DNA of 64,000 nt from Anaerolineales bacterium (GCA_021108255.1 JAIORG010000072.1:95-64094), one strand, 5' to 3'. Positions 27,611 through 41,583 are shown, counted from the first letter of the stretch. A program made the numbers and translations. Notes: generated by a model not told the origin, from the letters alone.

Positions 27611-27639
27611 CGCCTGCTGAAACATCAACTCAGCAGGCG
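27611..27639. terminator. Bidirectional hairpin terminator between convergent genes
   Basis: Perfect 10-bp stem CGCCTGCTGA / TCAGCAGGCG with a 9-nt loop. Both flanks are T-rich when read in each direction. Confidence 0.6.
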
Positions 27640-27702
27640 GATTATTGTTTTGGTATCTTTCTGTTTCAATTACAGCTCTTTGAGGTACTTATTGATAACT
27701 CC

Positions 27703-29097
27703 TTAGGCATGAATAGCATTACCCGTCACAGCTTTGGCAGCTTCGTGCAGCACCTCGCTTAGAGTGGGGTGGGCATGAACGTTGTGTCCAATTTCAGCAG
27801 GGGTGAGTTCCATCTGCTGAGCCAGTGTTAATTCAGGCAGCAATTCTGTCACCTCTGGTCCAATCATGTGTGCGCCCAGTATTTCCCCATACTTTTCATC
27901 AACGACAAGTTTAACCCAGCCTCCGTAATCGTTCATCCCTAATGCTTTCCCGTTGGCCTGGAAATTAAATCGGCCTACAGCAACCTCGTATCCAGCATCC
28001 TTGGCTTGTTGCTCGGTTAAACCGAAGGAAGCTACCTGGGGATGGCAGTAAGTTGCCCGGGGCATATTCTGGTATTTGATTTCAGTTGAAGGAACTCCAG
28101 CAATATGTTCGGCGCAGATTACTCCCATTGCCATGCCAACATGAGCCAGCATTAATTTCCCGGTCACATCACCAATAGCCCAGATGCCAGGAACATTGGT
28201 TGCCATAGACTCGTCAATTTCGATAAATCCATTCTTGTCCACCTTTACCCCCGCTTTATCCAAACCTAAATCCTGGCTGTTGGGGACAAAGCTGGTTGCC
28301 AGTAGAACTTGATCGGTAGAGATTTTTTCCTCTCCCTCCGGTGTTTCCACCACCACATTCACTTTTGTCTTAAGTGTTTCAACTTTAGTTACTTTACTCT
28401 TGATCAGGGTGGTTATGCCTTGTTTGTTAATCGCCTTCTGCAGAGCAGCGCTGATTTCTTCATCTTCATTTGGAACAATTCGGTCAATCATTTCTACAAC
28501 AGTCACCGGTACCCCATAGCTGTTCCAAATGGTAGCAAATTCCATCCCAATGGCTCCCGCTCCGACAACCAGGGCGGATTTGGGCAAAGTGTCCTGCAAA
28601 ATAGCTTCCTTATAGGTAACAACCTGTTTACCGTCAATTTCGATGCCTGGGATGATAAAAGGCCTGGCGCCGGTAGCAATGATGATGTTATCCGCCTGAA
28701 GTTCTTCGGGCCCATTTTCACCGCTGATTTGAACTGTGTTTTGGGAGGTAAAAACTGCGTTGCCGGAGAAGAGGGTAACCTTGTTTTTCTTTAATAAATA
28801 TTCCACACCCTTGGTCAGTCGTTTTGAAACCTGGCGGCTGCGTTTAACCGCAGCGCCGTAATCGAGTTTTAGATTATCAAACGAAAAACCAAAATCTTTC
28901 CCCTGGGTGCGGAGAGTATAAGCTACCTCGGCGTTTTTAAGCAGGCTTTTGGAAGGGATGCAGCCGACATTAAGACACACGCCGCCTAAAAATTCCTTCT
29001 CTACTATCGCGACTTTCTGTCCCAGTTGGGCGGCTCGAATAGCAGCCACATACCCTGCAGGACCCGCACCTATAACAATCAAATCAAATTTACTCAT
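27703..29097 (-). CDS. lpdA: Dihydrolipoyl dehydrogenase (E3)
   Basis: GAGPAGY FAD loop, redox disulfide GGVCLNVGCIPSK, NAD loop GAGAIGME, and C-terminal HAHPTLSE. Start set to ATG 29097 (MSKFDLIVIG). Confidence 0.9.
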   Translation of the reverse strand: MSKFDLIVIGAGPAGYVAAIRAAQLGQKVAIVEKEFLGGVCLNVGCIPSKSLLKNAEVAYTLRTQGKDFGFSFDNLKLDYGAAVKRSRQVSKRLTKGVEYLLKKNKVTLFSGNAVFTSQNTVQISGENGPEELQADNIIIATGARPFIIPGIEIDGKQVVTYKEAILQDTLPKSALVVGAGAIGMEFATIWNSYGVPVTVVEMIDRIVPNEDEEISAALQKAINKQGITTLIKSKVTKVETLKTKVNVVVETPEGEEKISTDQVLLATSFVPNSQDLGLDKAGVKVDKNGFIEIDESMATNVPGIWAIGDVTGKLMLAHVGMAMGVICAEHIAGVPSTEIKYQNMPRATYCHPQVASFGLTEQQAKDAGYEVAVGRFNFQANGKALGMNDYGGWVKLVVDEKYGEILGAHMIGPEVTELLPELTLAQQMELTPAEIGHNVHAHPTLSEVLHEAAKAVTGNAIHA

Positions 29098-29125
29098 GAT
29101 TTTCCTCTTCCTGAAATTTTCTAAT

Positions 29126-30118
29126 TTATTCTTCAAAGGGGAATTTATGCCCCCATTGTTCCCGAACTGTATCCAGCGTTTTCATTATGCTCAGGGTTTC
29201 ATCCAGCGGCATAATATCTGATTCGGTTTTCCCCTCTTTAATGCAGCCCATTACTTCCATGGCCTCGTATTCATATCCGTTATATCCATCAATCGGTAAG
29301 GAGATCAGCTCGGGATCTTTTCCTTCCACATGCAGGGTCATTTTAACCGGTTTGTACCAGGGTGAATGGACCACGATTTTACCCTTGCTGCCAAATACAA
29401 TGGCATCTTTGTCGTCGTAGGAGATCTGGGAGGACATCAGGCACACCAATTGGCCCTGGGAGTAACGCAGCACCAGCGAGGTCTGGTAATCTGCACCGCT
29501 CTCCCCAAAACTTGCCAGGCCGGTAACCGCTTCAGGTTCTCCGAACAGGCTGGAAGCCCAGGATACTCCGTAAGAAGCGGTATCCAGCAGGACCCCTGCG
29601 CCGAGGTTAAGATCAAAGAAGCGGTTCTTTAGGTCATAGGCCGGTTTGGCAAGAAAATTGATTGTGATGCCGTTTGTTTTTCCGATCACCCCTTCTTTCA
29701 ACAATTCCCGAATCCGGACGTGGATAGGGAAGAACCTGGTCCACATAGCTTCCATCAGGAATAGATTCTTTTCCCTGGCCAGGTCAACCATGATTTGGGC
29801 TTGTTTGGCGTTGATTGAAAATGCTTTTTCACACAGGACATGCTTCCCCTGGTTAAGACTCATTGTTACGTCGCGCAGGTGATAAACACCCGGGGTGCCG
29901 ATATAGATGATATCAATATCAGGATCAGCGGCTACTTGTTCGTATTCTGTGTACCGGCGGGAAATATTAAATTTATCCCCGAATGCGTCCGCGGTATCTT
30001 GATTCCTGGAACCGACCGCCAGCAGCTCGGCATGTTCAGGGATATTGTTTAACGCTTCAGCGAAACGGGTGGCTATTTTTCCTGTACCCAGGATGCCCCA
30101 TTTTATTTGATCAGACAT
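29126..30118 (-). CDS. Gfo/Idh/MocA-family oxidoreductase
   Basis: GILGTGKIA Rossmann loop and the CEKAF (EKP-type) motif. Start set to ATG 30118 (MSDQIKWGILG) with GGAGA upstream. Confidence 0.85.
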   Translation of the reverse strand: MSDQIKWGILGTGKIATRFAEALNNIPEHAELLAVGSRNQDTADAFGDKFNISRRYTEYEQVAADPDIDIIYIGTPGVYHLRDVTMSLNQGKHVLCEKAFSINAKQAQIMVDLAREKNLFLMEAMWTRFFPIHVRIRELLKEGVIGKTNGITINFLAKPAYDLKNRFFDLNLGAGVLLDTASYGVSWASSLFGEPEAVTGLASFGESGADYQTSLVLRYSQGQLVCLMSSQISYDDKDAIVFGSKGKIVVHSPWYKPVKMTLHVEGKDPELISLPIDGYNGYEYEAMEVMGCIKEGKTESDIMPLDETLSIMKTLDTVREQWGHKFPFEE

Positions 30119-30156
30119 AAGATTCTCCTCACTTTTTAATAATATGAGACAAAAGA

Positions 30157-30579
30157 TCAATCAAAATCAATTCCTTCCTCAGCCCAGACAATCTTTCCTT
30201 CTTTTTCCCTTCTGGCAGGAATGACACAAAGAAACCCCAGGGGTTCCATCCCTGTATTGGTTATCTGATGAAGAATATCGGGAGGGATATGAATGATATC
30301 TCCCCGGCTTATGAGGTGTGTTTCTTCATCAAGCAACACTTCCCCTTGACCCTGCAGGATCAGGACTCCGTGATCGTATGGGTGCTGTTCTTTTCTGGAG
30401 TACCCCTTGGGGCCAACCTCGTAATAGCGGAAGGCAAAGTTCTCGGCGCCTTCTTTTTTGCCAATAATCCAGGTTTCAGAGACCTGGTTTACTTCCTCGT
30501 TCTGGTACATTCGGGAGCGAGCGCCATCCCATTTGAAAATCTGTTTCCAATCGCCGTTAAATTTACGTATCGTTCCCAT
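30157..30579 (-). CDS. Cupin-domain protein
   Basis: Cupin_2 pattern: HPYDHGVLILQGQGEV...GDIIHIPPDILHQITNTG. Confidence 0.7.
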   Translation of the reverse strand: MGTIRKFNGDWKQIFKWDGARSRMYQNEEVNQVSETWIIGKKEGAENFAFRYYEVGPKGYSRKEQHPYDHGVLILQGQGEVLLDEETHLISRGDIIHIPPDILHQITNTGMEPLGFLCVIPARREKEGKIVWAEEGIDFD

Positions 30580-31408
30580 GTTCAGTTCCTTTTGATCTAA
30601 GTGTGGATGCGCCCAGGATAGCTGCGAGGTCAGCTAATGAAATTCTTGAGGTTAGGTCATAACTTAATGGTGTAATGGATACCAATCCTTGAGCCATCGC
30701 ATAAGCATCTGTGTCTTGACTTAGATACTTGCCTTTGCTGGGAGTGTAAGAGATTTTTTCTGGAGCCCCGAATTGCTGGTTACGATTCTGAATTGAAGGA
30801 GTGTAATAAGGCAAACGGTCCTGCCGGGTTACGACACATTTTGTTTCTGTTGAGGCAGAAAGAGGAATTTCCAATTTAAGCACATCGGCATCAAAAGGAA
30901 GGGACTCGTTCAGCATTTTTTCAGCAATTTTACGAGTGAAATACACAGCGGTGGAGAAATCCACATTTTCGCTGTAGCTGTGATAATCAACGCTATCAAT
31001 TTCCTGGGAGACCGCCAAAGTTGGTATTCCTTTTTCTGCAGCTTCAAGCGCAGCCCCTATTGTTCCAGAGACTGTAACACAACTGCCAATATTCTCGCCA
31101 TAGTTTATACCGGAAACTGCCAGGGCGATATTCCGGTCAGATAATTCGAGCCTGGCGTGTACAACAGCCAGGGCTGGGGTTGCCTTTACGCCGAACCCTT
31201 CCCAAGTATGGTTTTCGTATTTAACGATTGTTTTTGTTATTGTCCCGTCCCCACCACAGTTCTGGGTCCGGCTTCTCCCCATGCTGGTTTGTTGTTCGAA
31301 GGGAGCGACTATTAACAAATCTCCCAGTGGGTGAAGCGCTTCAGCGGCAGCAGCCAGCCCGGGAGATTGAATGCCGTCGTCATTAGTGAGCAGGATTAAT
31401 GGTTTCAT
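30563..31408 (-). CDS. surE: 5'/3'-nucleotidase SurE
   Basis: ILLTNDDGIQSPGL N-terminal signature and SGINYGEN are present. Confidence 0.9.
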   Translation of the reverse strand: MKPLILLTNDDGIQSPGLAAAAEALHPLGDLLIVAPFEQQTSMGRSRTQNCGGDGTITKTIVKYENHTWEGFGVKATPALAVVHARLELSDRNIALAVSGINYGENIGSCVTVSGTIGAALEAAEKGIPTLAVSQEIDSVDYHSYSENVDFSTAVYFTRKIAEKMLNESLPFDADVLKLEIPLSASTETKCVVTRQDRLPYYTPSIQNRNQQFGAPEKISYTPSKGKYLSQDTDAYAMAQGLVSITPLSYDLTSRISLADLAAILGASTLRSKGTEHGNDT

Positions 31409-32220
31409 GACTGGTGCACCTCGAGCAGGGCCTGGTGCAATTGGGAGATATCTTCGTAAATAAAGTCCGGTTTAATATCGCTGCGGCTGATTTCCTCCCG
31501 GGAAGTCACCCCGGTGAGGACTGCTGCTGTCCGAATTCCCAGATTAGAAGCTCCCAGGATGTCAGTCTCCAGGCGGTCCCCGACCATGAGGGTATCCTCG
31601 GGCTTTGCGCCGAATTCCTTTAACGCGGTTTGAAAGATTGCCGGGTGCGGCTTGCCGGCCACAAAAGGCTTTACTCCCGAGGCAAATTGAAGTGCGCCGA
31701 TTACCATGCCTGTTCCTGGGTTTATTCCTTCTGGAGTAGGGAAAGAACCATCTGTATTTGTGGCAATGAAGGCGGCGCCGTTCATGATCAACCTCATGGC
31801 GATTTTAATCTTTTGATGATTGATCTGGCGGTCCATTCCCGCCACAACTGCGACTACTTCTTTCCCTGGATTTTCTTCTCCAATGGATAACTGGAAACCG
31901 GCATCTTCCAGGGTTGTTATCAGCCCATCCATGCCAACCACGTGGAGAGGAGCCCCTGGTCCAAATCGTTCAAGCAGGTACTCTGCCGTGGTGGTGGAAC
32001 TGGTAATCACGGAGTTTGAATTGGCGGAGATGCCAAATTTTCCAAGCTTATCTATGTAATCCTGGGCGGTGCGTGTGCTGTTATTTGTTAACAAAGCCCA
32101 GTTGATTCCGTTCCCAACTAAAAACTCAATAAAGGGATTTATTCCTGGAAGTGGATTGTCCGTTATCCACAAGACACCATCTGCATCCAGAAGGATGGTT
32201 TTGAATTTTACCAACTTCAT
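31405..32220 (-). CDS. HAD-IIA family sugar-phosphate phosphatase (NagD-like)
   Basis: LLDADGVLW (DxDG), LTNNSTRT, GKPHP and GDRLETDI are present. It overlaps surE by 4 nt. Confidence 0.85.
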   Translation of the reverse strand: MKLVKFKTILLDADGVLWITDNPLPGINPFIEFLVGNGINWALLTNNSTRTAQDYIDKLGKFGISANSNSVITSSTTTAEYLLERFGPGAPLHVVGMDGLITTLEDAGFQLSIGEENPGKEVVAVVAGMDRQINHQKIKIAMRLIMNGAAFIATNTDGSFPTPEGINPGTGMVIGALQFASGVKPFVAGKPHPAIFQTALKEFGAKPEDTLMVGDRLETDILGASNLGIRTAAVLTGVTSREEISRSDIKPDFIYEDISQLHQALLEVHQS

Positions 32221-32238
32221 AGTAGGCCTTCAGGGTTG

Positions 32239-33200
32239 TTATTTTTCCTTTTGACAACGTTCCTGTGCCAATTCCAGCACTCGGAGAGCTGTGAGGTTGT
32301 CTGTTACCAGGGAGTTTATGAACCTCCCGCAGGTTGCGCCCAAAATAGCTTCCGCTTTTTCAATATTGCCGGCTACGCCCAGGCGAATAGGAATTTCTAG
32401 GATTCCGGGCAGAGAGGTTCCAATCCGCCGTTGATGAAAATCAATCGGGGCAAGGTTCCCCTCAATGTCAAAATATATCGCACAAACATCTCCCACGGCA
32501 TCAGCCGCTCGAATAGTCTTTATATCTTGCAGGGAGATATGATTTTCTTTATATAGGCTGCAGAATTCCGATTTGGTTGTGCCAATTCCCATCAAGGCAA
32601 TATCACATTCTTTTCCAATTGAGACTGCTTTTTCAACAGTTGGATCTTTTAACAAAGAGGCGGCCGTTTTTTCATTCTCAACAATAAATGGCGAGAATAA
32701 ATAAGTCCCCTCCCCGCCGATTTTTTGAGCCATTTGCTCGACCAGAATCTGGGCGCTATATGAATGACGGGTTGATCCCAATACGCCCACCAACTGAACA
32801 ACCGTAGTGTCCTTGATTGGAATAGTTTCAAAGGCCTCAATGGTCGCTTGAACAGTTGTTTGTGTCCGGGCTTAATGAGATTGGCCAATAATCTTGAAGC
32901 GGCTTTGCCGAGCTGCTTCCTGATTTCGTCATAATCTGGCTGATTGCTGAAAACCACTACAGATACATGTTTAAGGTTGAGTGTTTTCTGAAGTTTACTT
33001 TCCAGTTCACGATCATACTGGAAGGGACGGTGGATAATAATCTCTACAATGCTTTTCTCCCGGGCCTCGGTTAACATCCGGGAGACGGCGGATCGGGTTA
33101 AGCCAATCATCTCCGCGATCTCGGTTTGTTTTTTATCCTCTTGATAATATTTCTCGGCTACAAAGGCTAATAGTTCATCACGCTCGTTGTTATTTCCCAT
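32239..33200 (-). pseudogene. SorC/DeoR(Bsu)/CggR-family sugar-binding transcriptional regulator, interrupted by a frameshift near 32858-32871
   Basis: The N-terminal HTH part (MGNNNERDELL...EIAEMIGLTRSAVSRMLTEAREK...LIKPG) is in one frame. The sugar-binding domain (TTVQATIEAFE...VVQLVGVLGS...DIALMGIGT...GDVCAIYFDIEGN) is in another. The two track ORFs (32649-33245 and 32239-32793) overlap, and the joined length of about 320 aa equals the family norm. Confidence 0.8.
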
Positions 33201-33252
33201 GGGGATAACCCTATTAAATTTTATTAGTGGTCGAATATGTGACAAATTTCCA

Positions 33253-33281
33253 TTGACAGATGGCTAACTACCCACTATATT
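33253..33281 (+). promoter_or_regulatory. Near-consensus promoter of the PTS EIIABC unit
   Basis: TTGACA (33253-33258), a 17-nt spacer, then TATATT (33276-33281). Confidence 0.55.
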
Positions 33282-33287
33282 ATATCA
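33279..33287 (-). promoter_or_regulatory. Extended -10 element (TGaTATAAT) pointing at the SorC regulator operon
   Basis: The minus-strand sequence TGATATAAT equals plus-strand 33279-33287. It overlaps the palindrome at 33284-33297. Confidence 0.35.
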
Positions 33288-33318
33288 CATATGTGATTGT
33301 TCACTTCACGTATGTAAG
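33284..33318. promoter_or_regulatory. Bipartite operator candidate, copy 1
   Basis: Perfect palindrome ATCACATATGTGAT (33284-33297) plus degenerate box TTCACGTATGTAAG (33305-33318). Their centres are 21 bp apart. Confidence 0.5.
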
Positions 33319-33551
33319 TGTTTGAAGAGAGCACTCCATTTTTAGATAAAAAATTAGCTGAATAATTAATGTGATTTGCTGATTGAGCTTGTTTGTATCT
33401 GCGACAGGGTGATAATATTAATTAAACAAGAAAGCAACAGTTCCCCGCTTATAAGGCGTGCGGTGGTCACGAATTTTAAGAATTGTTCAGCAAGGCATTG
33501 GTGAGATTAACTCTAGAGATAACAGAATAGAAAAAGACCAATGGATAATAG

Positions 33552-34007
33552 ATGAAAATCAAAGATTATTTATGTGATGATGCGGTGATAATTGGGCTAG
33601 ATGCCAGAGATTCTGAGCAAGTTATTCGTACTTTGGGTGGGAAGCTGCGCAATTTAGGATATGTCAAGGAAAATTTTGTTGAGGCGACTTTGGAGCGGGA
33701 GGCAAATTTGCCAACCGGGTTGCCTTTAGGGGGAGAGTACAACGCAGCCATTCCCCATGTGGACATTGAATATGTTAATCAATCAGCTCTAGGGCTGGCT
33801 ACTCTGAAACAGGATGTTGTGTTTTGTAATATGGTTGAAAACGATGTGGAAGTACCCTGCAGATTGGTGATTATGTTGGCTCTTGATCAACCAAAATCCC
33901 AGATTGAGATGCTGCAAAGCGTAGCAGCTGTGCTGCAGGATCAAGAAATTGTAAAAAAACTGGTTTCAGCTGAAACGGCAGAAGAAGTTTTTTCCATTCT
34001 GTCATAA
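33552..34007 (+). CDS. PTS EIIA component (EIIA-2: mannitol/fructose/galactitol/ascorbate type)
   Basis: PTS_EIIA_2 layout with the phosphorylatable His in AAIPHVD. EIIB and EIIC follow. Confidence 0.85.
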   Translation: MKIKDYLCDDAVIIGLDARDSEQVIRTLGGKLRNLGYVKENFVEATLEREANLPTGLPLGGEYNAAIPHVDIEYVNQSALGLATLKQDVVFCNMVENDVEVPCRLVIMLALDQPKSQIEMLQSVAAVLQDQEIVKKLVSAETAEEVFSILS

Positions 34008-34031
34008 GCATCATTAGAAAAGGATAAAAGT

Positions 34032-34316
34032 ATGGCAAAAACCGTGATCGTGTCTTGTGGAACTGGAATTGCCACTTCAACCGTAGCGGCAATAGCGATT
34101 GAAGAGGCCTGCAAGGAGGCTGGAATTGATGTCGTCACCAAGCAATGCAAAGGGCAAGAGATCCCTGAATTGCTGAAACAGGGAGCAGATTTGATTGTTA
34201 CCACCTCCGTTATGCGCTTTGATCCCGGGATCCCGGTGGTGAAAGGGCTGGCGTTTTTGACCGGAGTGGGCAAAGACGCGATTGTACAAGAGATTCTAGA
34301 TCACCTGAGAGAGTAG
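34032..34316 (+). CDS. PTS EIIB component (GatB/UlaB type)
   Basis: KTVIVSCGTGIATS with the active-site Cys near the N-terminus, and about 94 aa long. Confidence 0.85.
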   Translation: MAKTVIVSCGTGIATSTVAAIAIEEACKEAGIDVVTKQCKGQEIPELLKQGADLIVTTSVMRFDPGIPVVKGLAFLTGVGKDAIVQEILDHLRE

Positions 34317-34491
34317 TAACCAGAATTTGCTTTTAGTGTTCTTACTGGTACTGGTAAATCCAGCCAATAACTGATTTCAGGGAGATTGTGAGTTCTCTGC
34401 AAGTCTTCAAGGAGGTGATAAGTATTCCAAACAATCAGTAAAGTTAAGTAACGCACCACGTATTTTTTATTATTCTTTGGAGGATAAAAAA

Positions 34492-35886
34492 ATGGATTTC
34501 CTTACCATACTGAAGTCATTTGTTGACACCATGGGTGCCACAGTGCTTCTGCCCGTCTTCATTTTTATTTTTGCCCTTATCCTGGGCGCGAAAGCCGGTC
34601 GTGCTTTCCGGGCTGCTGTGACCATCGGTGTTGCTTTCATTGGTATTAACCTGGTAATCGGGTTGATGTGGGGTGCACTTTCCGGTGTGTCTCAGGCCCT
34701 TGTTACCAATGTAGGCATTGAACGCGATATCATTGACGTGGGATGGCCGGCAGCGGCAGCTGTGGCCTTTGCCACCGATGTTGGCTTGTGGGTAATTCCC
34801 GTTGGCTTGATCGTAAACTTTGCTCTCTTGATTCCTGGTGTAACCAAAACTCTTAACGTGGATATCTGGAACTTCTGGCACTATGCTTTGATTGGTTCCC
34901 TGGTAACCTACGCTTCTGGAAGTCTTCCCATGGGTTTGGCTGCCGCTGCTGTCGCTGCTGCCTTTATGCTCTTCCTGGGTGACTGGACTGCTAAAGGCAT
35001 TCAGGAATTTTATGACCTACCCGGCATCTCCATTCCTCACGGTATGACTGCCCCTATGGTTCCCCTGGCACTTCCTTTCAACTGGCTGTTTGACCGCATT
35101 CCTGGTCTGCGCGACGTGGATGCCGATCCGGATGGAATTGAAAAGAGCCTGGGTTCAACCTTCGGCGATCCGATGGTTATGGGGTTGGTAATTGGCTTGA
35201 TTCTTGGACTGATTGCCTACTTTGGTGAATTTGCCGGTGCCTTTATTCCCACCCTGGGGAAAATCATTGTGCTCGGTTTTGAGCTGGCCGCCGTTATGGT
35301 CCTGCTGCCCCGCATGGTCCGCATTTTGATGGAAGGACTTATCCCGGTTTCTGAAGCCGCCCGCGACTTCATGTCCAAGCGCGCTTCTGATCGCGAAGTT
35401 TACATCGGTCTGGATTCTGCAGTTCTGGTTGGACATCCTTCTGCGATTTCAACTGGTCTGCTTTTGGTACCGATTGCGATCTTGCTCTCCATCATTCTGC
35501 CTGGCAACCGCATGCTGCTCTTTGCTGACCTGGCAGTGCTGCCCTTCCTCTGTGCTCAGATTGCACCGATGGCAAAGGGTAACATCGTCCGGATGGTCTT
35601 TGTTGGAACCATTTTGTTGATCTTTGGTTTCTACTTCGCCAACGCTTTAGCCCCGGCCATTACCGCTATTGCTGGCGGAGCTGGGTTCGCCATCCCCGAA
35701 AATGCTGTACTGATTTCCAGTATTGCTGATGGATTTGTATGGTCACCGCTTGCCTTCATGCTCCTGGGTAAATACCTGGGTTGGATCGGCATTGGCCTGT
35801 TTGCGATCCTCACAGCCGCTCTGTTCTACTTCTACAAAAAGAACGAAGCTGCCTGGGACAAACTTGCTGGCGCAAGTGGAGAGTAA
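34492..35886 (+). CDS. gatC: PTS EIIC component, galactitol (GatC) family
   Basis: The N-terminus MDFLTILKSFVDTMGATVLLPVFIFIFALILGAKAGRAFRAA...IGINLVIGLM aligns by eye to E. coli GatC. GGAGG lies upstream of ATG 34492. Confidence 0.9.
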   Translation: MDFLTILKSFVDTMGATVLLPVFIFIFALILGAKAGRAFRAAVTIGVAFIGINLVIGLMWGALSGVSQALVTNVGIERDIIDVGWPAAAAVAFATDVGLWVIPVGLIVNFALLIPGVTKTLNVDIWNFWHYALIGSLVTYASGSLPMGLAAAAVAAAFMLFLGDWTAKGIQEFYDLPGISIPHGMTAPMVPLALPFNWLFDRIPGLRDVDADPDGIEKSLGSTFGDPMVMGLVIGLILGLIAYFGEFAGAFIPTLGKIIVLGFELAAVMVLLPRMVRILMEGLIPVSEAARDFMSKRASDREVYIGLDSAVLVGHPSAISTGLLLVPIAILLSIILPGNRMLLFADLAVLPFLCAQIAPMAKGNIVRMVFVGTILLIFGFYFANALAPAITAIAGGAGFAIPENAVLISSIADGFVWSPLAFMLLGKYLGWIGIGLFAILTAALFYFYKKNEAAWDKLAGASGE

Positions 35887-35916
35887 ACTACTAAGGTTAT
35901 CTTGACAAATAGAACC

Positions 35917-35957
35917 GGGGTGTGTAATCTCATAAAGGTTGCACACCCCCTTTCTTT
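35917..35957 (+). terminator. Weak terminator-like hairpin after gatC-type EIIC
   Basis: 8-bp stem GGGGTGTG (35917-35924) / CACACCCC (35942-35949) with a 17-nt loop and a CTTTCTTT tail. Confidence 0.4.
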
Positions 35958-35977
35958 GCTCTTGGAGGAAAATAAGC

Positions 35978-36451
35978 ATGGTCCGATCGTTTATTGAAGC
36001 TATATTAGGAGAAGTTGGACGGCAAATTTTATACTATTATGAAGCCAACGCTTATTGGATCAATGTCATAGTGTTGATCTATGGTGTATTTATGTTTGCT
36101 GCCTGGATGAACATGGTTAGAATTTACCGTTTCCTGATTGTGGAAATGGCAAAAGAAGCCCATACGTCCGAAGAACTCAATCGAAAAAAATCCAATAAAA
36201 AGATCCGTGATATCATCGGGATTCCCTGGGAAAAAGCCGTAGAGCAAGCTCCCTTTCCATTTCTCGCTAGAATTGGCGATCTGGTGCCCAAGCGGAACAC
36301 TATTGAAAATCTACAAGGATATTTTGACGAAAAGGACCTGGCCGATAAAACCTTGAAGGCTCTTCAAGGGGAAAATATACAAAAAATGATGCCCAGCTCC
36401 CGAAGAATGCTGCAAAAAGAGCTGGAAGAACGGAAGAAAAAATCAGCCTGA
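35978..36451 (+). CDS. Hypothetical single-pass membrane protein with a Lys/Glu-rich tail
   Basis: GGAGG lies upstream of ATG 35978. There is one hydrophobic segment (WINVIVLIYGVFMFAAWMNMV) and no motif I recognise. Confidence 0.45.
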   Translation: MVRSFIEAILGEVGRQILYYYEANAYWINVIVLIYGVFMFAAWMNMVRIYRFLIVEMAKEAHTSEELNRKKSNKKIRDIIGIPWEKAVEQAPFPFLARIGDLVPKRNTIENLQGYFDEKDLADKTLKALQGENIQKMMPSSRRMLQKELEERKKKSA

Positions 36452-36638
36452 ATGTCTTAAGAAAGACTGTTTCGAACTAATCTTGTCCGGGCAAGCTTAA
36501 CTTAACTAATACTCCCGATAATGTTCCAATGCGGGTGAATTCTCTCGTTTATTAAATATTATTGATCATAATAATTGCCCGGCAGGAAATTTTCTATTTC
36601 CCCTTGGGCAGTTCTGGGTTTAAGGAAAGTGTCAGAAC

Positions 36639-36667
36639 TTGACAAAAAGGCCGACAACCCCTATAAT
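36639..36667 (+). promoter_or_regulatory. Consensus sigma70 promoter of the ulaE-like...DUF89 operon
   Basis: TTGACA (36639-36644), a 17-nt spacer, then TATAAT (36662-36667). Confidence 0.6.
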
Positions 36668-36668
36668 T

Positions 36669-36703
36669 AGCACATACGTGAACACACAAATCACATATGT
36701 GAT
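36669..36703. promoter_or_regulatory. Bipartite operator candidate, copy 2 (inverted as a unit)
   Basis: AGCACATACGTGAA (36669-36682, reverse complement TTCACGTATGTGCT) plus ATCACATATGTGAT (36690-36703). Their centres are 21 bp apart, and the second box ends 12 nt before the ATG. Confidence 0.5.
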
Positions 36704-36714
36704 ATTGGTACTCA

Positions 36715-37593
36715 ATGAAAAAAACCTGGATCAGCACCCTTGACTCTATCCCGGTTGGCCTGTACGAAAAAGCCCTGCCAAAAAACCTCACCTGGGAAGA
36801 ACGTTTAATTCTAACCAGGCAGACCGGCTTTGATTTTTTGGAAATCTCCATTGATGATACCGATGAGCGTATCACGCGTTTAGATTGGACCAAAAAAGTG
36901 AAACAGGATATTAAGAACACTATGGAGCGGACCGGGGTGAAGATCCAATCATTAAGCCTCAGCGCTCATCGCCGATATCCCCTGGGAAGCAAATCTGCTG
37001 AAACTCGCTCAAATGCATTGGATGCTTTTAAGAAGGCAGTTGACCTGGCGGTTGAATTGGGCATTCGGACTATCTTGATTGGCGGCGCAGATAATTACTA
37101 TGGGGAAAGCGACCAGGAGTCTCAGGATTGGTTCTTAACCAACCTGGGAAAAGGCTTCGAATGGGCCAGCGGGGCGGGTGTAATGCTGGCATTAGAAAAC
37201 TGGGATATCCAGATAGACACTTTATCAAAAGCAATGGAGTATGTCCGTTATTTTAATTCTCCCTGGTTCCAGGTTTATGCAGATTTTGGGAACTTGATTT
37301 TTGCCGGAGTGGATGTGGTTTCCCAGTTAGAGGAAGTAAAGGGGCATATTGCAGCCCTCCATATTAAAGACACCCTTCCCGGGCAGCTGCGGTATGTGAC
37401 CCCAGGAGAGGGAGAAGTACCATTTGTGGATGCATTTACAAAATTAGCCCAGATCGGTTTCCAGGCGCCAGTGGTTTTAGAACTCTGGACTGAAGAATTT
37501 CCTGACGCGGTTGAAATCGTTGAGGAAGCTGGAAAATTCATTAGAGCCCGGATGAAAGATGGTTGGAGTAGATTCCAAGCCGGGCAACCATAA
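36715..37593 (+). CDS. ulaE: L-ribulose-5-phosphate 3-epimerase / L-xylulose-5-P 3-epimerase (UlaE/SgbU-like)
   Basis: Collinear by eye with E. coli UlaE: P(V/L)G(L/I)YEKALP, GFDF(L/V)E(I/M)S(I/V)D(D/E)TDER(I/L)(T/S)RLDW, LSAHRR(Y/F)PLGS, NPWFQ(V/L)Y.D.GNL. Confidence 0.85.
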   Translation: MKKTWISTLDSIPVGLYEKALPKNLTWEERLILTRQTGFDFLEISIDDTDERITRLDWTKKVKQDIKNTMERTGVKIQSLSLSAHRRYPLGSKSAETRSNALDAFKKAVDLAVELGIRTILIGGADNYYGESDQESQDWFLTNLGKGFEWASGAGVMLALENWDIQIDTLSKAMEYVRYFNSPWFQVYADFGNLIFAGVDVVSQLEEVKGHIAALHIKDTLPGQLRYVTPGEGEVPFVDAFTKLAQIGFQAPVVLELWTEEFPDAVEIVEEAGKFIRARMKDGWSRFQAGQP

Positions 37594-37614
37594 TAAGAGG
37601 AGTTACACAGTTCG

Positions 37615-38265
37615 ATGACTGACAAACCCTACCTTCAATTAGCTTTAGATTATTTTGATTTGGCACCGGCCCTGGCAATGGCGCAAATTGTTCACAGGGA
37701 AGTTGATATTATCGAGATTGGCACTCCGTTAACCAAAGCCGCGGGTATGCTGGCGGTAAAAACAATCCGGGAGATGTGTCCTGATAATTTGATCCTGGCT
37801 GATATCAAATCTCCTGATGTTGGTGGGGGGGAAGCAAAGATGGCTTTTGACGCAGGAGCTGACTGGATGACAGTCTTAGGCGCTGCACCCCTGGATACAG
37901 TCAAGCTTGCTTTAGAGGAAGCCAACTCCCGACCAGGTAAGGAAATGTTCATCGAACTTACAGGTATTCGAGATATCATTACTCGAGCCAGGGACTGGCG
38001 TGGTATCGGGGTTGAGCGTATGGTTTATCACAGGGGATGGGATGAAGGCAATCTTTCCCGCTCCTGGGATGCCCAAGACAAAGATACAATCCAGGAATTG
38101 ATCCAGATGGGATTTGAAATTTCAGTCGCTGGCGGTCTGGGACTTGATATGATTCCATTTTTCGAAGGATTAGATATTTCCGTTTTTATTATCGGCAGAG
38201 CAATCCGGGAAACTCCTGATCCTGCTGCAACCGCCCGGAAATTCCAGGAAGCGATTAATAAATAG
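37615..38265 (+). CDS. ulaD: 3-keto-L-gulonate-6-phosphate decarboxylase-like (UlaD/SgbH; OMPDC suprafamily)
   Basis: LQLALD, VDIIEIGTPL, LADIK, IELTG, VYHRGWD, GGL, and FIIGRAIR all match UlaD. These motifs fit UlaD better than hexulose-6-P synthase. Confidence 0.8.
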   Translation: MTDKPYLQLALDYFDLAPALAMAQIVHREVDIIEIGTPLTKAAGMLAVKTIREMCPDNLILADIKSPDVGGGEAKMAFDAGADWMTVLGAAPLDTVKLALEEANSRPGKEMFIELTGIRDIITRARDWRGIGVERMVYHRGWDEGNLSRSWDAQDKDTIQELIQMGFEISVAGGLGLDMIPFFEGLDISVFIIGRAIRETPDPAATARKFQEAINK

Positions 38266-38295
38266 AAGATATTTTTTTTGGGGAGGTAAAACGAT

Positions 38296-39261
38296 ATGAC
38301 TTTAACGAAGGAAAAGGCAGAGCAGTATCTATTGCAAATGTATCAAATCCGTGCCTTTGAAGAGCAGGCTGAAAAGAGCTATATGGCAGGCAAAATTCAC
38401 GGTACGATGCACCTTTCAATAGGGCAGGAGGCATCCGCAGTCGGTTCCATCAGCACACTGGAACCAACTGATTTCATTATTGGTCATCACCGGGGACATG
38501 GTCTTTGTATTGCCAAGGGAGCAGATCTCAATTTGATGATGGCTGAATTTTATGGCAAGGAAAATGGATACTGCCGGGGGCGGGGTGGATCCATGCATAT
38601 TGCTGATGTGGACGGCGGTAACCTGGGAGCGAATGGTGTTGTCGGCGGAGGCATCCCGCTGGCTGTAGGAGTTGGTATTGGTTTGAAAATGCAGGCGGAA
38701 AACAAAGTGCTGCTGGCATTTTTTGGTGATGGGGCGGCATCAACCGGTGCCTTCCACGAGTCGATGATTCTGGCAGTGCTATACCAGGTGCCTGTTGTTT
38801 TCATTTGCGAGAACAACCAGTACGCCATGTCTTTTTCAGCAAATGATTGGACAACAAGTAAAAAAATTGCGGCCCACGGAGAAATCTACGGCATGCCCGG
38901 AAGCACATCAACTGACGGAAATGACCTTCTGGAGGTTCAGAAGGCAGTCGAAGCAGCAGTTAAACGAGCGCGTGAAGGGGGAGGACCCTCTTTAATTGTA
39001 AATGATACCTACCGCTGGCGGGGACATTCCAAGAGCGATCGAAATCGTTATCGAACAAAAGAAGAAATTGAGAAATGGAAGAAGAAGGATCCGATTCTAA
39101 GATTCCAGAAGCAATGTATCGGTGAAAAATTGCTGTCGGAAAAAGAAGCTGAAAAAATTAAGGATCAGGGCTATGCTGATATCGAGTCAGCCCGCCTGTT
39201 TGCTGAAGCCAGTCCTGAACCTGACGTCGCAGCACTTGAAGAAGGGGTATACGCGCCATGA
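38296..39261 (+). CDS. TPP-dependent 2-oxo/acetoin dehydrogenase E1 alpha subunit
   Basis: [23 protein letters not shown], and the TPP motif GDGA(X)n NN are present. Confidence 0.9.
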
Positions 39262-40244
39262 GAGAGATCACATACTTAGAAGCTGTACGCGAAGCAATGA
39301 CACAGGAAATGGAGCGTGATTCCCGCGTTTTCCTGATAGGAGAAGACGTTGGTGAATACGGCGGAGCTTTTCAGGTATCCTACGGTATGCTGGAAAAGTT
39401 CGGCCCCGAACGTATCCTGGATACCCCCATTACTGAGTTGGGTTTAACTGGTGCGGCAACTGGAGCTGCCTTGATCGGCATGCGCCCTATTGCGGAAATC
39501 ATGTTCATGGATTTCACTACCCTGGCATCAGAGCAGCTGGTAAACCAGGCTGCTAAATTGCGCTTTATGTTTGGAGGGAACGCTACCGTGCCGTTGGTGT
39601 TGAGGACACCAGCAGGATCCGGAACCGGGGCAGCTGAACATCATTCCCAAAGTTTCGAAAATTGGTTTGTTCATGTTCCGGGATTAAAGGTAGTTATGCC
39701 CACTACGCCTTATGATGCTAAAGGGCTGTTAATTGCGTCCATCCGGGATGATAACCCGGTGGTTTTCATAGAACATAAACTGCTCTATAAAACTAAAGGT
39801 GATGTACCGGAAGAGCTTTATGAGATTCCGCTGGGGAAGGCGGATATTAAAAGGGAAGGAAAGGATCTTACAATTATTGCCACCTCGATCATGGTGCAAC
39901 GCTCTTTGCAGGCTGCAGAAGAGTTGGCTAAAGACGGCATAGACGTTGAGATCGTTGATCCCCGCACGCTGCGCCCCCTGGATACCGAAACTATCGTCAA
40001 TTCTGTCAAGAAAACCGGTAAGGTTCTAATTGTCCATGAAGCGGTTAAAACGGGCGGATTCGGCGGCGAACTCGCCGGCGTGATCGCCGAAAGTGAAGCG
40101 TTTGGCTATTTGGACGCGCCGATCCTGCGTTTGGCGGGACGGGAAGTTCCCATTCCATATAATCGTAATCTTGAACTTAAAGCAGTTCCTCAGGTTGAAG
40201 ATATTATCCAGAAAGCCAGGGAACTGGTAAATTTAAGGGTGTAA
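39258..40244 (+). CDS. 2-oxo/acetoin dehydrogenase E1 beta subunit
   Basis: [19 protein letters not shown], and the HSQS motif are present. ATGA overlap with E1 alpha. Confidence 0.9.
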
Positions 40245-40245
40245 T

Positions 40246-41571
40246 ATGGCAATTGAAATGATCATGCCCAAAGTGGACATGGACCAGGAAACCGGGACAG
40301 TGGTTGAATGGCTGAAAGGTAACGGTCAGCAGGTTGAGGAAGGTGAAACAATCCTGGTGATGGAAACAGACAAAATTGCCATTGATGTTGAAGCGCCGGG
40401 AACAGGGATACTGGATGGTATCTCCGCTAATCCGGGCGACGTTGTTCCTATTGGAACGGTGATAGCTTACATCCTGGCAGAAGGGGAAGATCTACCAAAG
40501 AAACCAATTGAATCAAAAGAACCTGTTCTGGAAATCCCAGAATCATCTGTTCCCGCCGAAATAGAGATATCGGCTACACCAGTTGCCAGAAATATGGCAG
40601 CAGTTCATGGTGTTAATCTGGCTGTTGTGGACTCAACTGGTACTGGCGGGAAAGTCACCAAAGCGGATGTTCAGGCAGTTGTCTCCCGGGCAGCCAAACC
40701 GGTTGATCCCCGGGAAATTTATGCAACACCAGCAGCGAGAAGAACTGCCAGAATTGAGGCCGTGAACATGGGATTAGTTCGGGGCAGTGGGCCGGGAAGT
40801 CGGATCCAGGTAGCTGATGTAAAAGGCTACCTGACCAGTAAAACCCAGGCTGATTTTGCAGCAAGCCCTCAGATACAAGCAGGGGAAGTTATTCCATTAA
40901 TTGGCATGCGCCGCACTATTGCAGAGCGATTAACGGCAAGTTACCAATCTATACCGCATATCCAATTTACTGTTCGTGTTGATATGACTAATTTCTTCAA
41001 AGCGCGGAACGACTACAATGAATTAGCCCTTAAGCGCGGAGATGACAAGGTGTCTGTTACTGCTGTGCTGGTAAAATTAGTGTCAATGGTTTTAACAGAT
41101 CATCCCTGGGTAAATAGTTCGCTCATTGATGACAAAATCATCCTTCATAAGGACATTAACATTGGCGTTGCGGTAGCCCTGGAAAAAGGATTAATTGTTC
41201 CCGTGGTCAAAAACGCAGATCAAAAAGGAATCAGTTTGATCGCCTTTGAAACCAATGATCTCATTACCCGGGCCAGAGAAGAAAATCTGAACAGCGCGGA
41301 CGTCAAAGACGGAACATTTACGATAACCAATCTTGGACCATTTGGTGTAGAGCAGTTTAATGCCATCATCAATCCTCCGGAAGCAGGTATCCTGGCGGTG
41401 GGATCCACAACATCTGAAGTTGTGGCTTTACCAGATGGCACGATTGCTACCAGGCCGATAATGCGGCTGACATTGTCTGCGGATCACAGAATTGTTGATG
41501 GTGCTGTTGCGGCTAGATTTATTGGTGATTTGAAGACCACTTTAGAGAATCCAATCTTGATGAATTATTAA
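40246..41571 (+). CDS. Dihydrolipoamide acyltransferase E2 (one lipoyl domain, two PSBD-like segments, catalytic domain)
   Basis: Lipoyl-lysine motif METDKIA, two ATP.AR...GV/M..V.G(T/S)G..G.(V/I)...DV segments, and catalytic DHR..DG. Confidence 0.9.
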   Translation: MAIEMIMPKVDMDQETGTVVEWLKGNGQQVEEGETILVMETDKIAIDVEAPGTGILDGISANPGDVVPIGTVIAYILAEGEDLPKKPIESKEPVLEIPESSVPAEIEISATPVARNMAAVHGVNLAVVDSTGTGGKVTKADVQAVVSRAAKPVDPREIYATPAARRTARIEAVNMGLVRGSGPGSRIQVADVKGYLTSKTQADFAASPQIQAGEVIPLIGMRRTIAERLTASYQSIPHIQFTVRVDMTNFFKARNDYNELALKRGDDKVSVTAVLVKLVSMVLTDHPWVNSSLIDDKIILHKDINIGVAVALEKGLIVPVVKNADQKGISLIAFETNDLITRAREENLNSADVKDGTFTITNLGPFGVEQFNAIINPPEAGILAVGSTTSEVVALPDGTIATRPIMRLTLSADHRIVDGAVAARFIGDLKTTLENPILMNY

Positions 41572-41583
41572 TTAGGAGAACTA

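What the first reader, a model, noticed from the sequence alone, without database searches (positions are those of the whole stretch)
33253..36703. The same perfect 14-bp palindrome plus a degenerate second box 21 bp away sits on two near-consensus promoters of the PTS locus
Site 1:
- TTGACA-17 nt-TATATT lies at 33253-33281.
- It is followed by ATCACATATGTGAT (33284-33297) and TTCACGTATGTAAG (33305-33318).
- A minus-strand extended -10 element (TGaTATAAT, 33279-33287) overlaps the palindrome and points at the regulator operon.

Site 2:
- TTGACA-17 nt-TATAAT lies at 36639-36667.
- It is followed by AGCACATACGTGAA (36669-36682, reverse complement TTCACGTATGTGCT) and ATCACATATGTGAT (36690-36703).
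- The ATG follows 12 nt later.

Why it looks like an operator:
- The box centres are 21 bp apart (two helical turns) at both sites, and the pair is inverted as a unit.
- A repeated 14-mer alone is not remarkable in 64 kb.
- The case rests on the combination of perfect palindromy, an 11-nt-identical second box (TTCACGTATGT), identical spacing and placement directly after -10 elements.

Inference: one oligomeric repressor, most obviously the adjacent SorC-family protein, controls both plus-strand units and its own divergent operon.
Basis: seen in the sequence. Interest (0 to 1): 0.6.

Follow-up and report, generated by a model that had tools for sequence, protein, structure and literature searches.

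The report
Conserved two-box operator of a sugar operon repressor
Two promoters of a sugar-uptake and breakdown gene cluster in an uncultured Anaerolineales bacterium each carry the same pair of 12-bp palindromes 21 bp apart; the pair is conserved across dozens of related genomes and is most likely the docking site of the neighbouring SorC/DeoR-type repressor, which makes it a solid but ordinary case of local gene regulation.

Summary
The window holds two box pairs (TCACATATGTGA-like, 21 bp apart) where about 0.007 are expected, and none occur in 919 kb of control DNA. They sit directly after the only two near-perfect sigma-70 consensus promoters in the 64 kb.

Phylogenetic footprinting over 61 unique sites from about 45 related Anaerolineales genome and metagenome loci shows conserved boxes (1.4-2 bits per position). 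The 9-nt spacer and the flanks drift freely. Spacing was 21 bp in 32 of 33 pairs in 19 genomes. Site 2 follows the UlaE-like gene through insertions and is absent where that gene is absent.

The adjacent regulator is a full-length homolog of B. subtilis DeoR (SorC family, E=5e-43). Members of this family are tetramers that bind bipartite operators. Its recognition helix, TRSA(V/I)SR, is invariant wherever the motif occurs. In related clades the same box pair lies between face-to-face promoters for the PTS operon and the regulator operon.

RNA-hairpin, repeat-element and CRP/Rex-type readings were tested and rejected. In this window the regulator carries a 19-nt frameshifting deletion that is absent from >99%-identical contigs.

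Verdict: real, well supported, and a new member of a known kind. Binding itself remains untested.

The parts
33253..33281 (+). Promoter P1 for the PTS IIA-IIB-IIC unit: -35 TTGACA (33253-33258), 17-nt spacer, -10 TATATT (33276-33281)
   Evidence: 11/12 consensus. TTGACA-N17-TAtTAT is conserved in orthologs. The window and its same-population contigs carry a 2-nt TA insertion relative to the other species.
33285..33296 (.). Operator box O1a, TCACATATGTGA (perfect palindrome); predicted to span about -3 to +9 of P1
   Evidence: 1.2-1.8 bits per position over 58 unique sites.
33306..33317 (.). Operator box O1b, TCACGTATGTAA (right half degenerate), centre 21 bp from O1a
   Evidence: TCACrTATGTwa is conserved at site 1 in all orthologs, and the 9-nt spacer is not conserved.
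33231..33242 (.). Possible auxiliary third box TCGAATATGTGA, 54 bp upstream of O1a (52 bp in L001 and L002)
   Evidence: Present only in the window/L001/L002/L123 clade. It overlaps a minus-strand TTGTCA-16-TAAAAT promoter-like site at 33245-33218.
33279..33287 (-). Minus-strand extended -10 TGATATAAT, a candidate promoter of the regulator operon that overlaps O1a
   Evidence: Seen directly in the sequence. It is the reverse complement of the conserved TATTATATCA, so its conservation cannot be separated from that of the P1 -10 and O1a. No -35 element.
32239..33200 (-). SorC/DeoR-family regulator gene, frameshifted here by a 19-nt deletion (junction 32859/32860)
   Evidence: Pfam Sugar-bind plus an N-terminal HTH, split over two frames. 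The deletion shows against L001-L003 and against >99%-identical contigs L109 and L113, which are intact; it is flanked by TTGT microhomology. The intact form aligns over its full length to B. subtilis DeoR 8r7y, E=5e-43.
27703..32220 (-). Genes downstream of the regulator on the minus strand: HAD phosphatase (31405-32220), SurE (30563-31408), cupin (30157-30579), GFO/Idh/MocA oxidoreductase (29126-30160), dihydrolipoyl dehydrogenase E3 (27703-29136)
   Evidence: syntenic in orthologs. E3 is named from its translation and its synteny with E1/E2; it was not scanned against a family library. The operon structure is inferred from the tight spacing.
33552..35886 (+). PTS IIA (33552-34007), IIB (34032-34316) and IIC of the galactitol/ascorbate type (34477-35886)
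   Evidence: Pfam PF00359, PF02302 and PF03611; NCBIfam.
35917..35949 (+). Terminator-like hairpin (14-bp stem) with a T-rich tail after IIC
   Evidence: fold -26.1 kcal/mol, z -5.4.
35939..36451 (+). Conserved ORF of about 170 aa with no family match, between IIC and site 2
   Evidence: no hits; syntenic in all orthologs.
36639..36667 (+). Promoter P2 for the UlaE-like operon: TTGACA, 17 nt, TATAAT (12/12 consensus)
   Evidence: conserved in orthologs.
36670..36681 (.). Operator box O2a, GCACATACGTGA (degenerate in this clade, perfect in most species); about -4 to +8 of P2
36691..36702 (.). Operator box O2b, TCACATATGTGA (perfect), centre 21 bp from O2a, 12 nt before the ATG
36715..43577 (+). 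Catabolic unit downstream of P2: L-ribulose-5-P 3-epimerase-like (36715-37593), 3-keto-L-gulonate-6-P decarboxylase/HPS-like (37615-38265), 2-oxoacid dehydrogenase E1 alpha, E1 beta and E2 (38296-41571), HPr (41584-41853), Enzyme I (41850-43577)
   Evidence: for the first three genes. E1 beta, E2, HPr and EI are named from their translations and from the Pfam labels of orthologous genes in L124. Syntenic in orthologs.

Best explanation
The two box pairs are operators of the adjacent SorC-family (DeoR-subclass) repressor.

Proposed mechanism:
- The repressor is a dimer of dimers. Each N-terminal HTH dimer reads one 12-bp palindrome, TCACATATGTGA.
- The two sugar-binding domains tie the dimers together, so the tetramer occupies two boxes whose centres are 21 bp (two helical turns) apart on one face of the DNA.
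- At both promoters the boxes begin 1-3 nt after the -10 hexamer. A bound tetramer would therefore cover roughly -4 to +30 and block open-complex formation or promoter escape.
- This would repress the PTS IIABC unit (P1) and the UlaE/UlaD-like, E1/E2, HPr and EI unit (P2). Because site 1 lies in the divergent intergenic region, it would also repress the regulator's own operon.
- A phosphorylated sugar intermediate produced by the PTS pathway is expected to bind the C-terminal domain and release the repressor.
- In the window's sequence the regulator carries a 19-nt frameshifting deletion. If that deletion is real, this strain would express the locus constitutively.

Shown here: the existence, non-randomness, conservation, spacing and promoter placement of the boxes; the family and intactness of the regulator in relatives; and the invariance of its recognition helix.

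Inferred: that this protein binds the boxes, that it is a tetramer, the transcription start sites, the effector, and repression rather than activation.
For: - Non-random: 2 pairs observed against 0.007 expected, and 0 in 919 kb of controls.
- Footprint: 33 pairs in 19 genomes, 32 of them at exactly 21 bp. Over 58 unique sites the box positions carry 1.4-2 bits, while the spacer and flanks carry 0-0.4 bits.
- Site 2 stays immediately upstream of the UlaE-like gene when 1.3-1.7 kb is inserted (L004, L008, L021). It is missing in L005, where that gene is missing.
- An unbiased metagenome scan for the box-pair pattern returned 43 contigs, of which 35 are this locus.
- The regulator is adjacent in every sufficiently long locus, down to 51% identity.
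- The regulator aligns over its full length to B. subtilis DeoR (E=5e-43), LsrR and SorC.
- DeoR's base-contacting R34 and R39 (PMC11229326) align with R36 and R41 of this protein.
- The helix TRSA(V/I)SR is invariant in nearly all motif-linked regulators; L108 has SRSNVSR. SorC paralogs with SRPxxS(R/K) helices in control loci have no motif.
- PMC11229326 shows that DeoR and CggR are tetramers (dimers of dimers) on bipartite operators with both halves on the same DNA side, and that their effectors are phosphosugars.
- In L081, L085, L101 and L118 the promoter plus box pair drives the regulator-led operon directly. In L104 and L124-L126 one box pair sits between face-to-face -35/-10 promoters for both directions.
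- No other regulator gene is conserved in the locus.
Against: - There is no binding, expression or transcription-start data.
- The regulator and its targets are always linked, so context cannot separate 'the motif follows the regulator' from 'the motif follows the target genes'.
- An identical box pair occurs next to an IclR-family regulator and an acyl-CoA dehydrogenase operon in unrelated contigs (L095, L105, L115). The motif by itself therefore does not identify the regulator family.
- The half-site geometry differs from DeoR's left half-operator. Here it is TCACA-N2-TGTGA; in DeoR it is TTGAA-N6-TTCAA (PMC11229326).
- No complete genome could be scanned, so sites elsewhere in the genome, as expected for a global regulator, are not excluded.
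- The regulator in this window is frameshifted.
Confidence: 0.8

Rival explanations
1. The boxes are operators, but of a different, unlinked transcription factor. Candidates are an IclR-type tetramer or a CRP/FNR- or Rex-type global regulator that reads TGTGA/TCACA half-sites. On this reading the SorC-family protein binds elsewhere.
For: - The same TCACATATGTGA-N9-TCACATATGTGA pair lies between an IclR regulator gene and an acyl-CoA dehydrogenase operon in L095, L105 and L115.
- TGTGA/TCACA are the CRP and Rex half-sites (established knowledge).
- No complete genome was scanned.
Against: - No IclR homolog is present in the window or in any orthologous locus.
- The half-site spacings here are N2 and N9, not the N6 used by CRP and Rex (seen directly in the sequence).
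- No further pair occurs in the 64-kb window or in about 270 kb of orthologous flanks.
- 35 of 43 exact pairs in the metagenome scan are this one locus.
- The only regulator conserved in the locus is the SorC-family gene, and its DNA-reading helix is invariant.
Confidence: 0.12
2. The palindromes act at the RNA level. Because both boxes are palindromes, box 1 pairs with box 2 in the 5' leader to form a hairpin that affects transcript stability, attenuation or translation.
For: The leader can fold into a 10-bp inter-box stem: -11.3 kcal/mol, z -2.1 at site 1, and -9.5 kcal/mol, z -1.6 at site 2.
Against: - Substitutions do not preserve pairing. Within boxes there are 101 one-sided changes against 2 compensatory ones.
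- Between boxes there are 82 broken pairs, 24 G-U pairs and 2 compensatory pairs. The counts are the same on the non-transcribed strand and when box 2 is shuffled among sites.
- In L104 and L124-L126 the pair is used in both orientations between face-to-face promoters.
- No Rfam family matches.
- The pairing potential is an automatic consequence of having two copies of a palindrome.
Confidence: 0.03
3. The repeated palindrome is a chance recurrence, or a small repeat or mobile-element remnant, with no regulatory role.
For: A repeated 14-mer somewhere in 64 kb is not rare in itself. Three of the metagenome hits (L087, L090, L114) are low-GC repeat arrays that contain the same 12-mer.
Against: - 0.007 pairs are expected per window and 2 are observed; identical palindromes are otherwise absent.
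- The pairs occupy conserved syntenic positions after promoters in about 45 loci, with unconserved flanks and spacer.
- There are only two copies per locus.
Confidence: 0.01

Closest known systems
Bacillus subtilis DeoR (SorC family, DeoR subclass) and its dra-nupC-pdp operator
   Same: - Closest solved homolog of the regulator: full-length alignment, E=5e-43.
- Same domain plan, an N-terminal HTH followed by the NagB-like sugar-phosphate-binding domain PF04198.
- The base-contacting arginines R34 and R39 are conserved.
- DeoR is a tetramer, a dimer of dimers, on a bipartite operator whose two halves lie roughly two helical turns apart on one DNA face, and it is released by a phosphosugar (PMC11229326).
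- The regulator gene lies next to the regulated operon.
- The DeoR right half-operator contains TTACATATGT, which equals the proximal-box variant seen in L081, L085 and L101. This is a lead only.
   Different: - The DeoR operator is asymmetric: a palindrome TTGAA-N6-TTCAA plus a direct repeat. It lies at -60 to -21 and overlaps the -35 element.
- Here there are two compact 12-bp palindromes, TCACA-N2-TGTGA, placed from about -4 to +30, and they are used at two promoters.
- The residues between the two arginines differ (RSAVSR here, RPTVSR in DeoR).
- The NCBIfam DeoR equivalog score is far below its cutoff (210 against 420), so this protein is not a DeoR ortholog.
- The regulated pathway is a PTS/UlaDE-like/2-oxoacid-dehydrogenase cluster, not nucleoside catabolism.
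Bacillus subtilis CggR (SorC family, CggR subclass) and the gapA operator
   Same: A tetramer formed by two dimers binds a tandem operator of two similar halves roughly 20-23 bp apart. The operator lies downstream of the transcription start, so it acts as a roadblock. The system is autoregulated and its effector is a phosphosugar (PMC11229326, PMC2943609).
   Different: - CggR has a winged-helix DNA-binding domain of a different subclass.
- Its operator uses CGGGAC-N6-TGTC repeats at +32 to +77.
- Homology to this regulator is much weaker and limited to the effector domain (E=1e-15 to 6e-16).
LsrR (E. coli/Salmonella) and SorC (Klebsiella)
   Same: Both are full-length homologs (E=7e-34 and 3e-32). 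Both are tetrameric SorC-family repressors of divergently transcribed sugar or phosphosugar operons, and both respond to a phosphorylated ligand (established knowledge of the family).
   Different: They have different operator sequences and different regulons (AI-2 uptake, sorbose PTS). The NCBIfam LsrR equivalog score is far below its cutoff (150 against 486).
UlaR (DeoR/GlpR family) and YiaJ (IclR family), regulators of the E. coli ula and yia-sgb operons
   Same: They control operons that encode UlaA/B/C-type PTS components or UlaD/UlaE paralogs, that is, similar target enzymes (established knowledge).
   Different: They belong to unrelated regulator families and have unrelated operators. 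The resemblance is in the target genes only.

Membership tests
SorC family transcriptional repressor (DeoR subclass), for the adjacent regulator | N-terminal helix-turn-helix DNA-binding domain followed by the C-terminal NagB-like sugar-phosphate-binding domain (Pfam PF04198) | tested here: met
   The window fragments hit PF04198 at E=6e-41 and also hit HTH models. The intact same-population copy (L109) aligns over residues 5-312 to DeoR 8r7y at E=5e-43, and also to LsrR and SorC.
SorC family transcriptional repressor (DeoR subclass), for the adjacent regulator | Conserved DNA-contacting residues of the DeoR subclass (R34 and R39 in B. subtilis DeoR) | tested here: met
   In the alignment, RSAVSR aligns with RPTVSR. 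The contacts are taken from PMC11229326. The helix is invariant across orthologs.
SorC family transcriptional repressor (DeoR subclass), for the adjacent regulator | Tetramer (dimer of dimers) in solution and on DNA | not testable with these tools
   Inferred from the family (PMC11229326). The two-box operator is consistent with it.
SorC family transcriptional repressor (DeoR subclass), for the adjacent regulator | Intact open reading frame in this genome | tested here: not met
   The window has a 19-nt deletion at 32859/32860 that shifts the frame. The gene is intact in >99%-identical contigs L109, L113 and L099, so the deletion is a strain variant or an assembly error.
SorC-type bipartite operator, for the box pairs | Two related half-operators about two helical turns apart, on the same face of the DNA | tested here: met
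   The centres are 21 bp apart at both sites, and in 32 of 33 pairs across 19 genomes. The published DeoR and CggR operators have halves about 20-23 bp apart, by my own count from the sequences in PMC11229326.
SorC-type bipartite operator, for the box pairs | Located in or next to the promoter of the regulated operon, adjacent to the regulator gene | tested here: met
   The boxes start 1-3 nt after the -10 of the two best sigma-70-type promoters. The regulator gene is divergent from site 1.
SorC-type bipartite operator, for the box pairs | Purifying selection on the boxes but not on the spacer or flanks | tested here: met
   Information content per position over 58 unique sites; alignments.
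SorC-type bipartite operator, for the box pairs | Specific binding by the cognate regulator and release by a phosphosugar effector | not testable with these tools
   Needs EMSA, footprinting or DAP-seq with the intact ortholog, plus a ligand screen.
SorC-type bipartite operator, for the box pairs | Half-site arrangement like the DeoR left half-operator (5-nt half-sites separated by 6 nt) | tested here: not met
   Here the arrangement is TCACA-N2-TGTGA, and the conserved block is exactly 12 bp. DeoR's left half-operator is TTGAA-N6-TTCAA (PMC11229326). This is a property of DeoR itself, not of the family, because CggR differs as well.
CRP/FNR- or Rex-type site | Inverted TGTGA and TCACA half-sites separated by 6 nt | tested here: not met
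   The TGTGA-to-TCACA separation between boxes is 9 nt. Within a box the order is TCACA-N2-TGTGA.

The most novel reading that the evidence does not exclude
The box pair and its SorC/DeoR-type repressor may define a previously undescribed, clade-wide regulon in uncultured Anaerolineales. The regulon would be a PTS-fed catabolic route that joins UlaE/UlaD-like enzymes to a pyruvate/acetoin-dehydrogenase-like E1/E2/E3 complex and a dedicated HPr/Enzyme I. Some species add corrinoid methyltransferase-like and microcompartment-shell genes. The operator geometry, two compact 12-bp palindromes spanning the transcription start, differs from both structurally characterised SorC-family operators. That implies a different docking of the DeoR-type HTH dimer on DNA.
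Probability: 0.3. Interest if true: 0.45.

Novelty: new member of a known kind. Interest (0 to 1): 0.3.

Why it matters
It gives a clean, testable regulator-operator pair for an uncultured Chloroflexota lineage in which almost no transcriptional regulation is known.
- The operator consensus is precise: TCACATATGTGA-N9-TCACATATGTGA, immediately after the -10 element.
- It indicates that canonical TTGACA/TATAAT promoters are used in this lineage.
- It delimits a co-regulated gene set whose substrate is unknown.

The regulon boundaries could guide work on what the PTS/UlaDE-like/2-oxoacid-dehydrogenase pathway degrades. The operator adds a third, geometrically distinct example to the two SorC-family operators that have structures. 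It does not change any general concept: a local repressor with a divergent, autoregulated, two-box operator is textbook architecture.

Tried and rejected
- RNA structure. Rfam found nothing in 33150-36750. The inter-box hairpin is only the by-product of two palindromes: there is no compensatory change within boxes or between boxes.
- Separating the regulator from its targets by context. Homologs down to 51% identity were looked up, and all lie in the same locus. This test is uninformative, although it added three more loci with box pairs.
- Contrast with the second SorC paralog in L005. No clear two-box operator was found upstream of it, so it gives no usable comparison.
- Single extra boxes. 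ACAGATATGTGA at 20546 and GAACATATGTGA inside inserted genes of L006, L015 and L017 are single boxes with 2 mismatches. That is the chance level (1.9 expected per window), and the latter lies at the start of a BMC-domain ORF.
- Literature. The 12-mer appears only incidentally in three unrelated eukaryote papers and has not been described as an operator.
- The eight metagenome contigs with the pattern but without the locus. Three are repeat arrays, three are the IclR/acyl-CoA dehydrogenase locus, and two (L096, L122) have no identifiable genes.
- Whole-genome scan of the motif.

Full report
**Observation**

Every sequence and coordinate in the finding is correct.
- Site 1 is TTGACA (33253), 17 nt, TATATT (to 33281), then ATCACATATGTGAT (33284-33297) and TTCACGTATGTAAG (33305-33318).
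- Site 2 is TTGACA (36639), 17 nt, TATAAT (to 36667), then AGCACATACGTGAA (36669-36682) and ATCACATATGTGAT (36690-36703), with the ATG at 36715.
- The window contains 12 perfect 14-bp palindromes, and only these two are identical.
- With a loose definition (two TCACATATGTGA-like boxes, at most 5 mismatches together, 20-22 bp apart) the window has exactly two pairs. Simulated windows give a mean of 0.007, and 919 kb of unrelated control loci give none.
- The two promoters are the only matches to TTGACA-N17-TATAAT with at most one mismatch in all 64 kb, and they are the top two in the local scan.

**Context**

The window comes from an Anaerolineales (Chloroflexota) genome.

On the minus strand, diverging from site 1, lie a SorC-family regulator (32239-33200), a HAD phosphatase, SurE, a cupin, a GFO/Idh/MocA oxidoreductase and a dihydrolipoyl dehydrogenase.

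On the plus strand lie:
- PTS IIA, IIB and a galactitol/ascorbate-type IIC;
- a strong terminator-like hairpin (35917-35949; z -5.4);
- a conserved 170-aa ORF with no family match;
- site 2;
- an L-ribulose-5-P 3-epimerase-like gene, a 3-keto-L-gulonate-6-P decarboxylase-like gene, 2-oxoacid dehydrogenase E1 alpha, E1 beta and E2, HPr and Enzyme I.

**Phylogenetic footprinting**

A scan of one genome per species returned 18 syntenic loci whose IIC proteins are 69-96% identical to the window's.
- Each locus has box pairs only at the same two positions. There are 33 pairs in 19 genomes, 32 of them spaced exactly 21 bp and one spaced 20 bp.
- Alignments of both intergenic regions show conservation of the -35, the -10 and the two boxes. 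The promoter spacer, the 9-nt inter-box spacer and the flanks vary freely.
- Over 58 unique sites the box positions carry 1.4-2 bits and the neighbouring positions 0-0.4 bits. The conserved block is exactly the 12-mer TCACATATGTGA.
- Site 1 keeps a fixed distance of about 83 nt to the regulator's start codon, while its distance to the IIA start varies from about 80 to about 230 nt.
- Site 2 stays directly upstream of the UlaE-like gene when 1.3-1.7 kb of other genes is inserted (L004, L008, L021). It is absent in L005, where that gene is absent.

**Unbiased search**

Metagenome contigs were scanned for the pattern TCACATATGTGA-N9-TCACRTATGT, which gave 43 contigs.
- 35 are this locus.
- Three are low-GC repeat arrays.
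- Two have no recognisable genes.
- Three (L095, L105, L115; GC about 55%) carry the identical pair between an IclR-family regulator gene and an acyl-CoA dehydrogenase/CoA-transferase operon.

The sequence alone therefore does not identify the regulator family. No IclR homolog exists in the window or in the orthologous loci.

**The regulator**

In the window the gene is split over two frames. Alignment with L001-L003 shows a 19-nt deletion that removes the conserved IG(I/V)(S/A)WG segment and shifts the frame. Metagenome contigs more than 99% identical to the window (L109, L113, L099) have the gene intact, and the deletion lies between TTGT microhomologies. It is therefore a strain variant or an assembly error.

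The intact protein aligns over its full length with B. subtilis DeoR (8r7y, E=5e-43), LsrR and SorC. It scores far below the NCBIfam equivalog cutoffs for DeoR and LsrR. It is thus a family member but not an ortholog of either.

Structural work on DeoR and CggR (PMC11229326) gives the family's mode of action:
- The proteins are tetramers made of two dimers.
- Each DNA-binding-domain dimer reads one half of a bipartite operator, and both halves lie on the same side of the DNA.
- Phosphosugar effectors act through the C-terminal domains.
- DeoR residues R34 and R39 contact bases.

These two arginines align with R36 and R41 of the present regulator. The helix TRSA(V/I)SR is invariant in the motif-linked regulators even where overall identity falls to about 50%. 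SorC paralogs with SRPxxS(R/K) helices in control loci have no such motif.

**Autoregulation**

In the window's clade the regulator's promoter is uncertain.
- The extended -10 TGATATAAT (33287-33279, minus strand) is the reverse complement of the conserved TATTATATCA. Its conservation cannot be separated from that of P1 and box O1a.
- A second candidate, TTGTCA-16-TAAAAT (33245-33218, minus strand), overlaps a third weak box (33231-33242) that occurs only in this clade.

Other clades give clearer evidence.
- In L081, L085, L101 and L118 a TTGACA-N17 promoter with a -10 hexamer and the box pair drives the regulator-led operon directly.
- In L104 and L124-L126 one box pair lies between face-to-face -35/-10 promoters, one for each direction.

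**Alternatives tested**
- RNA hairpin. The two palindromes can pair with each other, but substitutions are not compensated. Within boxes there are 101 one-sided changes against 2 compensatory. Between boxes there are 82 broken, 24 G-U and 2 compensatory pairs, with the same counts on the opposite strand and after shuffling. Rfam has no match.
- CRP/Rex-type site. The half-site spacing is wrong (N2 and N9 instead of N6).
- Chance or repeat element. Excluded by the statistics and by the conservation pattern.
- An unlinked regulator. This cannot be fully excluded, because no complete genome could be scanned and the regulator never separates from its targets.

**Mechanism proposed**

A tetramer of the SorC/DeoR-type repressor occupies the two boxes from about -4 to +30 at P1 and P2, and blocks initiation or promoter escape. 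At site 1 it also limits transcription of its own operon. A phosphorylated intermediate of the PTS pathway releases it. The placement, conservation and family assignment are shown here. Binding, oligomeric state, effector, transcription starts and the direction of regulation are inferred.

**Comparison and novelty**

The system works like DeoR and CggR of B. subtilis. It differs in three ways:
- operator sequence and geometry, with two compact palindromes instead of a palindrome plus direct repeat (DeoR) or CGGGAC-N6-TGTC repeats (CggR);
- operator position, which spans the transcription start;
- regulon content.

The motif has not been described as an operator. This is a new member of a known kind. 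It is a reliable regulon prediction for an uncultured lineage, but not a surprising one. Interest 0.3.

Noticed in passing
window 32859/32860 (within regulator gene 32239-33200, minus strand): A 19-nt frameshifting deletion in the SorC-family regulator, flanked by TTGT microhomology. The gene is intact in >99%-identical metagenome contigs (L109, L113, L099). This is either a natural loss-of-repressor variant or an assembly error.
   Followed up: partly
window 33231-33242: A third weak box, TCGAATATGTGA, lies 54 bp upstream of box O1a (52 bp in L001 and L002). It occurs only in the window's closest clade and overlaps a minus-strand TTGTCA-16-TAAAAT promoter-like site (33245-33218) just upstream of the regulator's ATG.
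   Followed up: partly
window 35917-35949: A very stable hairpin (14-bp stem, -26 kcal/mol, z -5.4) with a T-rich tail directly follows the IIC stop codon. It overlaps the nominal TTG start of the next ORF and suggests that the PTS unit ends here.
   Followed up: partly
window 35939-36451: A conserved ORF of about 170 aa with no Pfam or NCBIfam match is syntenic between IIC and the UlaE-like gene in all orthologous loci (43-93% identity). Its function is unknown.
   Followed up: no
window 27703-43577: The gene content of the putative regulon is unusual. A galactitol/ascorbate-type PTS and UlaE/UlaD-like enzymes are combined with a pyruvate/acetoin-dehydrogenase-like E1 alpha/beta, E2 and E3 set, a dedicated HPr and Enzyme I, and HAD, SurE, cupin and GFO-type enzymes. 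The substrate and pathway are not obvious.
   Followed up: no
L004 2091-3182; L008 9002-10210; L005 9583-15395; L006 11553-14067; L125 30-3697: Some orthologous loci have extra genes inserted: URO-D-like (methyltransferase-type) proteins, a B12-binding protein, a class II aldolase, a BMC shell protein, a ketopantoate-hydroxymethyltransferase-like protein, and in L005 a second SorC paralog.
   Followed up: partly
L095 5986-6018; L105 1712-1744; L115 6811-6843: An identical TCACATATGTGA-N9-TCACATATGTGA pair lies between a divergent IclR-family regulator gene and an acyl-CoA dehydrogenase/CoA-transferase operon in unrelated contigs of about 55% GC. The same operator sequence and spacing appear to have arisen independently.
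   Followed up: partly
L099, L103, L109, L110 versus window 24445-39232: Several metagenome contigs more than 99% identical to the window are joined in inverted order at different breakpoints. For example, L109 joins window 29198 to 27751 in reverse, and L099 joins 36225 to 34235 in reverse. They look like chimeric assemblies or structural variants.
   Followed up: no
L081, L085, L101 proximal boxes; B. subtilis DeoR operator (PMC11229326): The right half of the published B. subtilis DeoR operator contains TTACATATGT, which is identical to the promoter-proximal box variant TTACATATGTGA in a distant clade of these loci. I estimate roughly 1-5% probability by chance, so it may reflect related recognition.
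   Followed up: no
window 33383-33418: In the longer IIA leader of the window/L001/L002 clade there is a TGATAATAT extended -10-like element (33410-33418) downstream of the operator. It could be a second promoter with no operator. It is conserved only among close relatives.
   Followed up: no
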